From: Naegleria gruberi | Lineage: Eukaryota | DNA: 1,000 nucleotides | Strand: one strand, 5' to 3' | Assembly (NCBI GenBank): GCA_000004985.1 | Contig: GG739628.1 | Shown: positions 1 to 1,000 of the stretch, in pieces | How the letters are laid out: each line of letters starts with the position of its first letter | Position numbering within the stretch: the stretch's first letter is position 1 | Program-made: the position numbers and the translations under genes | Notes under the pieces: model-generated | Seen by the model: only the letters and a program-made list of their open reading frames with translations | What the model was told of the DNA's origin: nothing | The model's database searches: none

Positions 1-157
1 AACGGACTGTGCTTTTCTTATACTTTTTATACAGAGCTCTGCATACTTTTTCGAATTCGGATGGTGACAATTTTGTATGAGGTCGTGGTGTACCATGTGT
101 TATTGCTTTTGGATATGGATTTTCAGACATTGTATCTGAAGATGGATTATCGGACAT
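1..157 (-). CDS. 5' end (N-terminal 52 codons) of a protein-coding gene running off the left edge; product unknown. N-terminus reads MSDNPSSDTMSENPYPKAITHGTPRPHTKLSPSEFEKVCRALYKKYKKSTVR
   Basis: ATG is the complement of 155-157 in context AAAATGTC (A at -3, A-rich leader, no SD-like purine run), and the frame is open to position 1. The peptide is hydrophilic and S/P/K-rich, typical of a eukaryotic N-terminus. Codons match yeast/plant preference (CCA x5, GGT, AGA, TTG, GCT, TCT). The overlapping plus-strand frame 1-160 is also open but is hydrophobic and uses CGG/CGA/CTG/GTG repeatedly. It is absent from the ORF track only because it is truncated by the window edge. Confidence 0.55.
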   Translation of the reverse strand, partial: MSDNPSSDTMSENPYPKAITHGTPRPHTKLSPSEFEKVCRALYKKYKKSTVR

Positions 158-160
158 TTT

Positions 161-220
161 GAACTTGTTGATGAACTTGTTGTTGATTGAACTTGTTGTT
201 GATCGATTTTGTTGATTGAA
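161..220. repeat. Tandem 16-bp repeat forming the leader immediately upstream of the ATG: a truncated copy GAACTTGTTGAT at 161-172, GAACTTGTTGTTGATT at 173-188, GAACTTGTTGTTGATC at 189-204 and a degenerate copy GATTTTGTTGATTGAA at 205-220. On the gene strand this reads (GATCAACAACAAGTTC)(AATCAACAACAAGTTC)(ATCAACAAGTTC)AAA-ATG
   Basis: Direct reading shows two full copies differing by one base (T/C at the last position) flanked by partial copies. Confidence 0.85.
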
Positions 221-233
221 TTTGCTAATAATC

Positions 234-262
234 GATTGATTGCTTATTGATTGCTATTGATA
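234..262. repeat. About 2.7 tandem copies of a 10-bp unit: ATTGATTGCTt at 235-245, ATTGATTGCT at 246-255 and ATTGATA at 256-262. Related CGATTGAT octamers occur at 232-239 and 294-301.
   Basis: Direct reading. The TTGATTG core recurs throughout 181-262. Confidence 0.75.
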
Positions 263-324: not shown

Positions 325-368
325 GCTTGAAAAATTGGTTAAATTTTATTTAGTTACAATTATCAAAT

Positions 369-423
369 GAATTCATACATGAAAGGAAGGGAAACGAATT
401 CATACATGTCAAGGGAAGGGAAC
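369..423. repeat. Near-perfect tandem duplication with period 27/28 bp: GAATTCATACATGaaaGGAAGGGAAAC at 369-395 and GAATTCATACATGtcaaGGGAAGGGAAC at 396-423. The purine tracts read CCCTTCCCTT / TTCCCTTCC (CTTCC boxes) on the gene strand.
   Basis: The first 13 bp of the two copies are identical and about 11 of the next 15 match. A third ATACATG at 442-448 and ACATG at 429-433 continue the motif outside the duplication. EcoRI sites at 369 and 396 are incidental. Confidence 0.85.
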
Positions 424-555
424 GAAAAACATGACATTTTGATACATGATTTGACAAACAATAATTAAAGGAACTGGTGGAAGCATCCCCTTTAACCCAT
501 TGTAATCCCAACAAACAAGAGTTTGAAGAAAAAACAAAGCCCATTTCAAAGCAAA

Positions 556-610
556 GGAAAAAAAAACCAAGCTGATCAACTTGGGAAATTTTTCCAAAGC
601 CCTAAAAAAA
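556..610. promoter_or_regulatory. Poly(dA:dT)-rich segment with an A9 tract at 559-567 and an A7 tract at 604-610. Between them are two overlapping imperfect palindromes, CCAAGcTGATCAaCTTGG (567-584, 8/9 pairs) and CTTGGGAAAttTTTCCAAAG (580-599, 8/10 pairs). An AGCCCTAA octamer at 598-605 matches both the plant telo-box and the yeast Tbf1 consensus ARCCCTAA.
   Basis: Direct reading. Homopolymer A tracts are classic nucleosome-excluding promoter elements in yeast, but function here is inferred only. Confidence 0.4.
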
Positions 611-710
611 CAAACTTTGCATCAAACCAGCAAGTGATCAAGTCACTAGTTCAATACATAGATTGCCGGAATGTCATTGAAGTTCAGAATGATCAAATCA
701 TCACTTCAAT
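573..710. repeat. Three dispersed copies of the heptamer TGATCAA at 573-579, 635-641 and 690-696. Each sits at the centre of local dyad symmetry. The first lies in the 567-584 palindrome, the second in AGTGAtcaagTCACT (633-647), and the third in the loop of the inverted repeat ATTGAAGT (676-683) / ACTTCAAT (703-710).
   Basis: Exact matches were read directly. Three copies of a G/C-containing heptamer within about 125 bp is unlikely by chance. Confidence 0.55.
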
Positions 711-744
711 TCAATTCCATAGGTACTATCGTAGACGCAGGTAA

Positions 745-1000
745 AGTATAGATCCTTTATCAGGTTCGGGACTTTACGAGCGTCAGTGAGTCGACAAGAA
801 GCCCTGTCTCGCCCAGGTACGACAGTAGGTCCCTTCAAAGAGGGGTCATAAGTGGTCTCCTTATTTGATACGGTCCAATCCCTTTTGGCTACCACTAGAT
901 AGAGATAATCTTTATGTTTACTCAGTGGGACTGAACCTAACTCAGCATCACAGTAAGACTCATAACTTAGAGGCTTTCAGTTATACATCTACATGCGTGG
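745..1000. other. Non-coding block of unknown function, GC-richer (about 48%) than the rest of the window. No ATG-initiated ORF over 25 codons occurs in any frame. Local short stems are present (CTGTC 804-808 with GACAG 821-825; the SalI-type palindrome GTCGAC 790-795). An ARS-consensus-like 10/11 match cTTTATGTTTA lies at 910-920.
   Basis: I scanned all six frames by eye and found stops in every frame except frame 1 from 829 to 1000, which is open but has no ATG. There is no tRNA or snRNA signature I can verify. Confidence 0.3.

What the first reader, a model, noticed from the sequence alone, without database searches (positions are those of the whole stretch)
567..710. Three TGATCAA heptamers, each centred in local dyad symmetry, plus overlapping palindromes
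TGATCAA occurs at 573, 635 and 690, with spacings of 62 and 55 bp. Each copy is embedded in an inverted-repeat context: an 18-bp palindrome CCAAGcTGATCAaCTTGG, then AGTGAtcaagTCACT, and finally the loop of the 8-bp inverted repeat ATTGAAGT/ACTTCAAT. The first palindrome overlaps a second 20-bp imperfect palindrome, CTTGGGAAAttTTTCCAAAG. Repeated symmetric sites at roughly helical-multiple spacing look like a cluster of binding sites for a dimeric factor, or a cruciform-prone region. I do not recognise TGATCAA as a named element, so this may be an undescribed cis element.
Basis: seen in the sequence. Interest (0 to 1): 0.5.

Follow-up and report, generated by a model that had tools for sequence, protein, structure and literature searches.

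The report
Conserved TGATCA hairpins after 28S rRNA gene
The three TGATCAA copies are real. They lie just downstream of the large-subunit rRNA gene on a Naegleria-type circular rDNA element, their positions are conserved in related elements, and they most likely mark where the rRNA transcript is ended or trimmed rather than forming a promoter.

Summary
**Observation.** It is confirmed. TGATCAA occurs at 573, 635 and 690, each inside local dyad symmetry. Three clustered TGATCA arise in only 18 of 20,000 shuffles.

**Context.** Window 1000→758 on the minus strand is the 3' end of a eukaryotic LSU rRNA. The closest relative is a circular 14,034-bp rDNA element with a GIR1 intron, which is the Naegleria CERE type. 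The finding therefore lies +40 to +200 nt downstream of the 28S end, in 3' ETS/terminator territory.

**Conservation.**
- In five other lineages the spacer is otherwise barely alignable.
- TGATCA recurs at the same offsets, about +62 and about +118 to +130, with a third box at about +180.
- It is about 50-fold enriched in that zone. It is otherwise absent from about 18 kb of spacer, apart from two copies in an unrelated tandem repeat.

**Structure.**
- On the rRNA-sense strand the boxes sit in the apical loops of three back-to-back hairpins.
- The second hairpin shows compensatory changes.
- The third hairpin is followed by T9.

**Best reading.** These are nascent-RNA hairpins carrying a YUGAUC(A) loop motif, plus a T-run. 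They would drive RNA polymerase I termination and/or 3' ETS processing.

**Main rival.** TGATCA is read in DNA by a dimeric roadblock or fork-barrier protein.

**Status.** I found no description in the papers searched. I rate it a new variant of a known kind, of moderate interest.

The parts
758..1000 (-). 3' terminal part of a eukaryote-type large-subunit (28S) rRNA gene. The gene ends at about 758 and runs off the right edge of the window.
   Evidence: Rfam LSU_rRNA_eukarya, model positions 3099-3401 of 3401, E 7e-4. Identity to full LSU genes of relatives is 94.7% (L015), 89% (L127), 87.5% (L125) and 81% (L032). In each case similarity stops at window 753-757.
724..737 (-). 'Box 0': CGTC-N6-AGTA on the minus strand, +21 to +34 after the LSU end. 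It is invariant in all aligned lineages.
   Evidence: Invariant runs CGTC and AGTA in alignment A2. Function not examined.
668..718 (-). Hairpin H1 of the 3' external transcribed spacer (19 bp).
   Evidence: MFE fold and inverted repeat I5. TGATCA lies at anchor +94 to +100 in all six lineages. No common stem register was found across lineages.
609..667 (-). Hairpin H2 (23 bp, six G.U pairs) with the 9-nt loop CUUGAUCAC at 642→634. It carries box 2, TGATCA at 635-640, about +118.
   Evidence: Box 2 lies at anchor +150 to +163 in four lineages, and one lineage has TGATCC. On alignment A3, 17 consensus pairs were predicted and 12 have compensatory changes. Cells paired are 81%, against 36-49% with slid partners, and 0 of 500 shuffles reach the observed value.
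545..606 (-). Hairpin H3 (22 bp). Its core is CCAAGUUGAUCAGCUUGG (584→567) with loop GAUC, carrying box 3 (TGATCA at 573-578, about +180). The 3' side runs into a T9 tract.
   Evidence: Terminator-like hit on the minus strand at 584→567 followed by TTTTTTTTTC. The positional equivalent in lineages D and E is AAGUU-UGAUC-GACUU followed by a pyrimidine/T run.
558..566 (-). T9 run on the non-template (rRNA-sense) strand directly after the H3 core hairpin. It is the candidate release site for RNA polymerase I.
   Evidence: Read from the sequence. Relatives have a T8-T9 or pyrimidine run after their last hairpin.
1..157 (-). Start of an ORF (MSDNPSSDTMSENPYPK...) on the rRNA-sense strand, about 600 nt after the LSU end. 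It runs off the left edge. This is context, not part of the element.
   Evidence: Translation. No homologue found. No similarity to the L125 ORF in a similar position.

Best explanation
**Where it is.** The window comes from a Naegleria-type extrachromosomal rDNA circle (CERE). The 28S rRNA gene lies on the minus strand and ends at about 758. The finding is the 3' external transcribed spacer and terminator zone that follows it.

**What it is.** On the rRNA-sense strand the region folds into three back-to-back hairpins: 718→668, 667→609 and 606→545. Their apices carry a conserved motif, YUGAUC(A). The last hairpin runs into a T9 tract.

**Proposed mechanism (inferred, not shown).**
1. RNA polymerase I transcribes through the hairpins.
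2. The nascent hairpins, together with the T-rich tract, destabilise or arrest the polymerase, giving hairpin-dependent Pol I termination.
3. The long double-stranded stems, H2 above all, may also be cut by an RNase III-type enzyme to start 3' end trimming.
4. The conserved loop sequence would be the recognition feature for the factor involved.

**What is shown.** The location, the positional conservation of the hexamer, the hairpin context and the covariation in H2.

**What is inferred.** That the region is transcribed, that Pol I stops there, and that the motif is read in RNA rather than in DNA.
For: **Location**
- Rfam places the LSU 3' end at window 758 on the minus strand.
- Relatives carry full LSU, 5.8S and SSU genes on that strand.
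- L015 is a circle, with a 127-nt terminal overlap giving 14,034 bp. It has one rDNA unit and a GIR1 ribozyme.
- L015 matches the Naegleria genus ITS primers exactly. The primer sequences were recalled from memory.

**Conservation of the hexamer**
- TGATCA positions relative to the anchor CTCACTGACG are:
  - window: +95, +150, +212
  - L015: +99, +163
  - L125: +100, +155
  - L128-L137 group: +97, +152
  - L127 group: +97
  - L141: +94
- In the zone +90 to +225 the expectation is about 0.04 copies per sequence, against 1-3 observed. About 18 kb of other spacer holds only two copies, both in an unrelated repeat.
- TGATCA and TGATC are the longest invariant runs in the spacer alignment. Only 7 of 200,000 permutations do as well.

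**Structure**
- The sense strand of window 540-760 folds at -64.6 kcal/mol, z -5.1. The antisense strand gives -44.5, z -3.3.
- The sense strand has the lower z-score in 7 of 7 sequences.
- The boxes are unpaired with mean probability 0.88, against a background of 0.28.
- H2 covaries: 12 of 17 pairs show compensatory changes.
- Closely related haplotypes show CAC/GUG→UAC/GUA and A-U→U-A exchanges.

**Directionality**
- The base before the box is always a pyrimidine.
- Variants differ only at the last base: TGATCC, TGATCG, TGATCT.

**Hairpin plus T-run**
- A hairpin followed by a T-run is detected on the minus strand.
- The more distant L032 keeps hairpins and a pyrimidine tract but has no TGATCA.

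**Precedent**
- Pol I terminators of yeasts, frog, mouse and human combine an RNA hairpin, a T-rich tract and a roadblock (PMC12366685).
Against: - There are no transcript or protein data for any of these sequences.
- A strictly conserved palindromic hexamer is more typical of a dimeric DNA-binding protein than of an RNA loop motif.
- The excess of G.U over A.C in the stems is clear only in the window (7 against 0). The other four counted sequences give 7 against 9, and the overall total is 14 against 9.
- H1 has no common stem register. In two cases, window box 1 and L125 box 1, half the box is paired. Sequence therefore seems to matter more than an exact loop context.
- The centre of any inverted repeat is a loop by geometry, so 'displayed in loops' is partly automatic.
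- No conserved roadblock-like site follows the T-run. The yeast/mammal terminator architecture is therefore incomplete here.
- There are only about six lineages, all from unnamed environmental or contaminant contigs.
- The H2 structure was derived from the same sequences it was tested on.
Confidence: 0.5

Rival explanations
1. TGATCA is read in double-stranded DNA. A dimeric protein binds the repeated palindromes and blocks RNA polymerase I as a terminator roadblock. It might also arrest replication forks entering the rDNA head-on, as TTF-I, Reb1 and Fob1 sites do elsewhere. The flanking hairpins then serve as the termination hairpin for the next roadblock downstream.
For: - The hexamer is a perfect palindrome and is kept while the flanks change.
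- Two to four copies lie downstream of the rRNA gene, like the repeated Sal boxes or Ter sites (established knowledge; PMC12366685).
- The box's position relative to the stems varies.
- The 54-62 nt spacing would place a polymerase stalled about 15 bp before one box just past the preceding hairpin (my inference and PMC12366685).
- How transcription-replication conflicts on the CERE are resolved is stated to be unknown (PMC13398248).
Against: - The motif is directional. There is always a pyrimidine before it, and degeneracy occurs only at the last base. A symmetric dimer site should not behave like this.
- Dyad symmetry around the boxes is kept through compensatory changes. A hexamer-binding protein would not need that.
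- No copy lies upstream of the rRNA genes in the complete circle L015, unlike the promoter-proximal T0/Reb1 sites.
- There is no match to the Reb1, Sal-box or Xenopus T3 consensus.
- L032 keeps the hairpins without the hexamer.
Confidence: 0.3
2. The dyads act as DNA structures on the supercoiled circle, for example cruciforms used for plasmid maintenance, multimer resolution, recombination or replication. In this reading they have nothing to do with rRNA 3' end formation.
For: - Each box sits at the centre of an inverted repeat.
- The element is a high-copy supercoiled circle whose maintenance functions are unknown (PMC13398248, PMC11008152).
- Covariation in stems fits DNA hairpins as well as RNA ones.
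Against: - The position is tied to within 6 nt of the 28S 3' end in all lineages.
- Stems are imperfect, with bulges and G.U pairs, which disfavours cruciform extrusion.
- The sense strand folds better than the antisense strand.
- No recombinase gene was recognised nearby.
Confidence: 0.08
3. The sites are promoter or enhancer elements for a nearby gene, here the ORF that starts at 157 on the minus strand, 410-540 nt downstream of the boxes.
For: - An ORF on the same strand begins about 600 nt after the LSU end.
- L125 has a 228-aa ORF in a comparable place.
Against: - The boxes keep their distance to the LSU end within 6 nt. Their distance to the ORF start differs by about 140 nt between the window and L125.
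- The two ORFs are not detectably related, and the window ORF has no homologue.
- L015 has the boxes but no comparable ORF within about 400 nt.
Confidence: 0.05
4. Chance, or neutral persistence of an ancestral sequence with no function.
For: - The window alone gives only p of about 0.001-0.025.
- The lineages share ancestry.
Against: - The surrounding spacer has diverged to near-unalignable, yet the hexamers are invariant at fixed offsets.
- Compensatory changes keep the stems.
Confidence: 0.03

Closest known systems
RNA polymerase I terminators of yeasts and vertebrates: 3' ETS RNA hairpin, T-rich tract and a Reb1/Nsi1/TTF-I roadblock (Nielsen & Zenkin 2025, PMC12366685)
   Same: - It lies directly downstream of the LSU rRNA gene on the sense strand.
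- Stable nascent-RNA hairpins are followed by a T/pyrimidine run.
- Several elements occur in series, like main and fail-safe terminators.
   Different: - No Reb1, Sal-box or T3 consensus is present, and no conserved site follows the T-run.
- The only conserved sequence is a 6-bp palindrome placed at the hairpin apices, not 15 bp downstream of a T tract.
- There is no promoter-proximal copy.
Rnt1/Pac1 (RNase III) processing hairpin of the yeast 3' ETS, which starts 'torpedo' termination (named in PMC12366685 and PMC8421224; details from established knowledge)
   Same: - An extended, imperfect double-stranded stem of 13-26 bp (H2) lies within about 150 nt of the LSU 3' end.
- It has a sequence-conserved apical loop that could act as the recognition feature.
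   Different: - The loop is a 7-9 nt YUGAUCA loop, not an AGNN tetraloop.
- There are three to four hairpins rather than one.
- Cleavage is untested.
Bacterial intrinsic (rho-independent) terminator
   Same: The pattern of a G+C-containing hairpin immediately followed by a U-run is present on the minus strand: 584→567 plus T9.
   Different: The polymerase here is eukaryotic Pol I. The resemblance concerns how it may work, not membership of the family.
Kissing-loop elements with a palindromic hexamer in a 9-nt loop, such as the HIV-1 dimerisation initiation site (from my own knowledge)
   Same: A self-complementary hexamer is displayed in 7-9 nt apical loops, and two to four such loops occur in one RNA.
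   Different: - UGAUCA would give only a weak six-pair contact.
- There is no evidence for loop-loop pairing.
- This is a speculative analogy only.
Non-ribosomal sequence (NRS) repeats described for Naegleria CEREs (PMC5805870, PMC7714845, PMC11008152)
   Same: It lies in the NRS of the same kind of element, which is known to be rich in repeats.
   Different: - Published descriptions list large direct repeats and call the NRS highly variable between species.
- The papers I could read describe no conserved motif next to the 28S end.

Membership tests
Naegleria-type circular extrachromosomal rDNA element (CERE) | A single rDNA unit (18S-5.8S-28S) on a circle of about 14-16 kb | tested here: met
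   For the closest relative, not the window itself. L015 has a 127-nt terminal overlap, giving 14,034 bp, and one SSU/5.8S/LSU unit. The window shares 94.7% identity over the LSU 3' end. Published sizes are 14,007-16,164 bp (PMC5805870, PMC7714845, PMC11008152).
Naegleria-type circular extrachromosomal rDNA element (CERE) | Naegleria-specific rDNA markers: a GIR1 twin-ribozyme intron in the SSU and the genus ITS primer sites | tested here: met
   GIR1 at 182.5 bits in the L015 SSU. Both ITS primers match L015 exactly, and one matches L125. The primer sequences were recalled from memory. The species of the window is not identified.
Pol I terminator (hairpin + T-rich + roadblock) | Located downstream of the LSU rRNA 3' end on the transcribed strand | tested here: met
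   The LSU ends at about 758 on the minus strand, and the element spans 718→545.
Pol I terminator (hairpin + T-rich + roadblock) | A stable RNA hairpin upstream of a T/pyrimidine-rich tract on the non-template strand | tested here: met
   H3 core at 584→567 followed by T9 at 566→558. The same arrangement occurs in L015, L125 and the L127/L128 groups.
Pol I terminator (hairpin + T-rich + roadblock) | A binding site for a Myb-type roadblock protein (Reb1/Nsi1/TTF-I/Rib2) about 15 bp downstream of the T-rich tract | tested here: not met
   No shared motif follows the T-run in five lineages. Reb1, Sal-box, S. pombe Reb1 and T3 consensus sites are absent, apart from one isolated CCGGGTA in L127 at +510.
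Pol I terminator (hairpin + T-rich + roadblock) | Transcripts actually end or are released there | not testable with these tools
   No transcript data are available.
RNase III (Rnt1-type) 3' ETS substrate | A long double-stranded stem close to the LSU 3' end | tested here: met
   H2 has 23 bp in the window and 13-26 bp in relatives, with covariation.
RNase III (Rnt1-type) 3' ETS substrate | An AGNN tetraloop capping the stem | tested here: not met
   The loops are CUUGAUCAC, AUUGAUCAC, CUUGAUCAA and CUGAUCA.
Sal-box / Reb1-type repeated terminator DNA sites | Repeated copies downstream of the rRNA gene | tested here: met
   Two to four YTGATC boxes within 300 nt.
Sal-box / Reb1-type repeated terminator DNA sites | An asymmetric 7-18 bp consensus, plus a further copy just upstream of the Pol I promoter | tested here: not met
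   The core is a 6-bp palindrome with no match to known consensus sequences. No TGATCA occurs in the remaining 6.6 kb of the L015 spacer.
Box C/D snoRNA (Rfam SNORD110) | A score at or above the family threshold, with C and D boxes of conserved spacing | tested here: not met
   20.8 bits against a gathering score of 64, E 0.25, and a 33-nt match with 38 model positions deleted. The UGAUGA...CUGA pattern is absent from relatives.
Any Rfam family over 545-718 | A match at E of 1 or below | tested here: not met
   Only chance-level hits were found: SNORD110 at E 0.25 and MIR161 at E 0.5.

The most novel reading that the evidence does not exclude
The palindromic hexamer is the working part of a Pol I 3'-end system unlike the Myb-type (Reb1/TTF-I) terminators. 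There are two versions of this reading.

1. A so far unknown dimeric protein binds TGATCA on the rDNA circle. It serves both as a Pol I roadblock and as a replication fork barrier.
2. The self-complementary UGAUCA loops of the successive 3' ETS hairpins pair with each other as kissing loops. They would build a compact RNA structure that signals processing or termination.

Either version would be the first defined cis-signal for rRNA transcription on Naegleria CEREs.
Probability: 0.3. Interest if true: 0.65.

Novelty: new variant of a known kind. Interest (0 to 1): 0.5.

Why it matters
Naegleria keeps all of its rRNA genes on about 4,000 copies of a circular element. [quoted passage not shown] The non-ribosomal part of the circle is described as highly variable between species (PMC11008152).

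A short motif that keeps its position next to the 28S end across lineages gives the first concrete, mutable candidates for the Pol I termination and 3' processing signal. These candidates are the three boxes, the three hairpins and the T-run.

It also offers a test, in a lineage far from yeasts and animals, of the recent claim that Pol I termination depends on an RNA hairpin (PMC12366685). N. fowleri is a lethal pathogen, and rRNA synthesis has been proposed as a drug target, so knowing these signals has some practical value. For biology at large the result is an incremental extension of a known theme.

Tried and rejected
1. **tRNA or tmRNA.** None found.
2. **Rfam families over the finding.** Only chance-level hits. 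The SNORD110-like C/D pattern in H1 looked suggestive (UGAUGA...CUGA with a terminal stem) but scores far below threshold and is absent in relatives.
3. **Identifying the source through the ORF at 157→1.** No homologue.
4. **Exact look-up of two window ORFs.** Not on record.
5. **Megablast against plasmids.** No match.
6. **Viral contigs scan.** No match.
7. **Homology between the window ORF and the ORF downstream of the LSU in L125.** Not supported. The L125 ORF family has no Pfam or PDB match, so my guess of a His-Cys-box endonuclease relic is unsupported.
8. **G.U against A.C asymmetry as proof of RNA-level selection.** Clear only in the window, 14 against 9 overall, so I use it only as weak support.
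9. **A common H1 structure.** RNAalifold finds none.
10. **A conserved roadblock site after the T-run, or known Reb1/Sal-box/T3 sites.** None.
11. **Literature on a Naegleria Pol I terminator or on TGATCA as a terminator element.** Nothing relevant. The origin-mapping paper (PubMed 30954840) is not held.
12. **Helical phasing of the boxes.** Rejected, because 55 and 62 nt are not multiples of 10.5.
13. **L140.** Discarded as a chimeric contig.

Full report
**1. The observation**

The window holds TGATCAA exactly three times, at 573, 635 and 690, all on the + strand. The tool's shuffles give a mean of 0.41 copies, and 5 of 200 shuffles reach three. In 20,000 dinucleotide shuffles of my own, three or more TGATCA within 117 nt occurred 18 times.

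- CCAAGCTGATCAACTTGG at 567-584: 16 of 18 positions self-complementary.
- CTTGGGAAATTTTTCCAAAG at 580-599: 16 of 20.
- AGTGA/TCACT at 633-637 and 643-647.
- ATTGAAGT/ACTTCAAT at 676-683 and 703-710, extendable to 16-nt arms at 81%.

Two details need correcting:
- The second heptamer is not centred on the AGTGA/TCACT dyad.
- The spacings of 55 and 62 nt are not helical multiples.

**2. What the locus is**

A permissive Rfam scan showed that window 1000→758 on the minus strand matches the last 300 positions of the eukaryotic LSU rRNA model (E 7e-4). I used two routes to find relatives:
- A metagenome scan with a 15-mer from that stretch.
- A scan of prokaryotic genome contigs with an 18-mer.

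Together they gave four relatives whose similarity to the window stops at 753-757:

| Relative | Identity to window |
|---|---|
| L015 | 94.7% |
| L127 | 89% |
| L125 | 87.5% |
| L032 | 81% |

Rfam finds complete LSU, 5.8S and SSU genes on the same strand in L015 and L032. It also finds a GIR1 branching ribozyme inside the SSU of L015.

L015 has a 127-nt terminal overlap, so it is a 14,034-bp circle with one rDNA unit. It also contains exact matches to the Naegleria genus ITS primers as I remember them. This is the architecture described for Naegleria CEREs, which are 14,007-16,164 bp with one rDNA cistron and a repeat-rich non-ribosomal sequence (PMC5805870, PMC7714845, PMC11008152).

**3. 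Conservation**

I obtained more relatives by translating the LSU 3' end and searching for spurious ORF calls, then fetching their contigs. This gave six lineages in all, plus the more distant L032.

TGATCA positions, measured from the invariant LSU 10-mer CTCACTGACG:

| Lineage | Box 1 | Box 2 | Box 3 and beyond |
|---|---|---|---|
| Window | +95 | +150 | +212 |
| L015 | +99 | +163 | none |
| L125 | +100 | +155 | none |
| L128-L137 group | +97 | +152 | TGATCG at +212, TGATCC at +291 |
| L127/L138/L139 group | +97 | TGATCC at +151 | TGATCG at about +211, TGATCC at about +291 |
| L141 (only 109 nt available) | +94 | not covered | not covered |
| L032 | none | none | none |

The enrichment and invariance are as follows:
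- In the zone +90 to +225 composition predicts about 0.04 copies per sequence, against 1-3 observed.
- The other 18.4 kb of spacer in these loci holds two copies where five are expected. Both lie in a 161-bp tandem repeat in a different context.
- In a six-sequence alignment of the spacer, the longest invariant runs are TGATCA and TGATC. Only 7 of 200,000 permutations of the invariant columns do as well.

**4. Anatomy on the rRNA-sense strand**

Window 760→540 folds at -64.6 kcal/mol (z -5.1), against -44.5 (z -3.3) for the complement. The fold consists of three back-to-back hairpins:
- **H1**, 718→668, 19 bp.
- **H2**, 667→609, 23 bp including six G.U pairs, with loop CUUGAUCAC.
- **H3**, 606→545, 22 bp. 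Its core is CCAAGUUGAUCAGCUUGG, and its 3' side is the T9 tract at 566→558.

The simple terminator scan also picks up the H3 core plus T-run on the minus strand.

Every relative gives the same picture, with a box at or near each apical loop. Across 19 boxes the mean predicted unpaired probability is 0.88, against a background of 0.28. The two exceptions are window box 1 and L125 box 1, where half the box pairs with an upstream GUGAU. The sense strand has the lower z-score in 7 of 7 sequences.

Evidence on the stems:
- For H2, RNAalifold on a plain MAFFT alignment predicts 17 pairs, 12 of them with compensatory changes.
- 81% of cells are paired, against 36-49% with slid partners. None of 500 shuffles reaches the observed values.
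- Two closely related groups differ by CAC/GUG→UAC/GUA in the outer H2 stem and by A-U→U-A in the fourth hairpin.
- H1 has no common register.

L032 keeps hairpins and a pyrimidine tract but has no TGATCA. The hairpins therefore look older than the hexamer.

**5. Is the motif read in RNA or in DNA?**

Three points favour RNA:
- The sense/antisense folding difference.
- The stem covariation.
- The directionality of the motif. On the sense strand the base before TGATC is always C or T. All variants differ only at the last base (TGATCC, TGATCG, TGATCT), and no VGATCA variant was seen.

Four points favour DNA:
- A conserved perfect palindrome is what dimeric DNA-binding proteins recognise.
- The copies are repeated like Sal boxes.
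- The exact relation of box to stem varies.
- The G.U excess over A.C is clear only in the window (7 against 0). The other four counted sequences give 7 against 9, and the total is 14 against 9.

Three points count against a TTF-I/Reb1-like system specifically:
- There is no match to the known consensus sites.
- No conserved motif follows the T-run.
- The complete circle L015 has no promoter-proximal copy.

**6. Mechanism**

The best-supported reading is that this is the Pol I 3' end formation zone of the rDNA circle. Nascent 3' ETS hairpins followed by a T-run would promote termination and/or offer RNase III-type cleavage sites. The YUGAUC(A) loop would be the recognition feature.

The precedent is recent. 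Pol I terminators in yeasts, Xenopus, mouse and human combine an RNA hairpin, a T-rich tract and a roadblock, and the hairpin is what releases the polymerase (PMC12366685).

Here location, conservation and structure are shown. Transcription through the region, termination at the T-run, and recognition in RNA are inferred. I put this reading at 0.5, the DNA roadblock/fork-barrier rival at 0.3, and other readings together below 0.2.

**7. Comparison with known systems and novelty**

The element works like a Pol I terminator or 3' ETS processing region. It fails two defining features of the characterised families: a Myb-type roadblock site and an AGNN loop. It matches no Rfam family.

The CERE papers I could read describe only large repeats and ORFs, and call the spacer highly variable. 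Searches for a Naegleria terminator, or for TGATCA in this role, found nothing. I therefore class it as a new variant of a known kind.

**8. Limits**

- All relatives are unnamed environmental contigs or contaminants in bacterial bins.
- I could not retrieve the named Naegleria CERE records.
- There are about six lineages, some of them close to each other.
- The H2 structure was derived from the same sequences it was tested on.
- No expression data were available.

Noticed in passing
window 724-737 (minus strand): A second conserved element, 'box 0', reads CGTC-N6-AGTA in the window (N4-N7 in relatives). It lies +21 to +34 after the predicted LSU 3' end and is invariant in all six aligned sequences. 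It might mark the true mature 3' end or a processing site.
   Followed up: partly
window 1-157 (minus strand): An ORF starts at 157 on the rRNA-sense strand (MSDNPSSDTMSENPYPK...). Its first 18 residues are an imperfect 9-aa duplication, coded by the 27-nt direct repeat 102-128/129-155. It has no homologue among 5.8 billion proteins. CERE papers report unexplained ORFs downstream of the 28S gene (PMC5805870, PMC7714845).
   Followed up: partly
L125 3935-4621: A 228-aa ORF lies on the rRNA-sense strand about 450 nt after the LSU end. It has two relatives at 69% and 49% identity in short contigs (P0002, P0003). It has no Pfam or PDB match and no similarity to the window ORF.
   Followed up: partly
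window 365-419: A 27/28-nt tandem duplication, AAA(T/C)GAATTCATACATG...AAGGGAA. Each copy carries a (near-)palindrome ATGAATTCAT (families D8 and D12).
   Followed up: no
window 164-262: Short periodic repeats, TTGTTGAT(T/C)GAA with 13/16-nt spacing. On the minus strand they form a CAACAA-rich leader just upstream of the ORF start (families D1 and D2).
   Followed up: no
window 677-709 (minus strand): A miniature box C/D-like pattern sits inside H1: UUGAAG-UGAUGA-...-CUGA-ACUUCAA. It gives a sub-threshold SNORD110 hit, E 0.25. It is not present in relatives, so it is probably chance.
   Followed up: yes
L125 (JARLHW010000166.1) and L127 (DYOB01000097.1): Naegleria-type rDNA contigs are filed inside bacterial metagenome-assembled genomes labelled Desulfosporosinus sp. 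and Borreliella garinii. The first contig is 14,317 nt, about the size of a whole CERE. These look like binning contaminants.
   Followed up: partly
L015 (JACCDN010942333.1), whole locus: A complete circular 14,034-bp CERE recovered from a metagenome. It has a GIR1-containing intron in the SSU at 5720-5917, and many copies of an AAAATGGCAAAGTCGAGAA-type repeat in the spacer.
   Followed up: partly
L032 230-420: Six tandem copies of an approximately 30-nt unit, TTGGTACTTGTAATTTTTAC..., lie directly after the hairpin plus pyrimidine tract that follows its LSU gene.
   Followed up: no
L128, anchor +1392 and +1553: Two further TGATCA copies lie in a 161-bp tandem repeat, in the context ATATGATCACG with no preceding pyrimidine. 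They are unrelated to the boxes near the LSU end.
   Followed up: yes
L140: In this contig the LSU 3' end is joined directly to LSU 5'-domain sequence. It is probably an assembly chimera and was excluded.
   Followed up: yes
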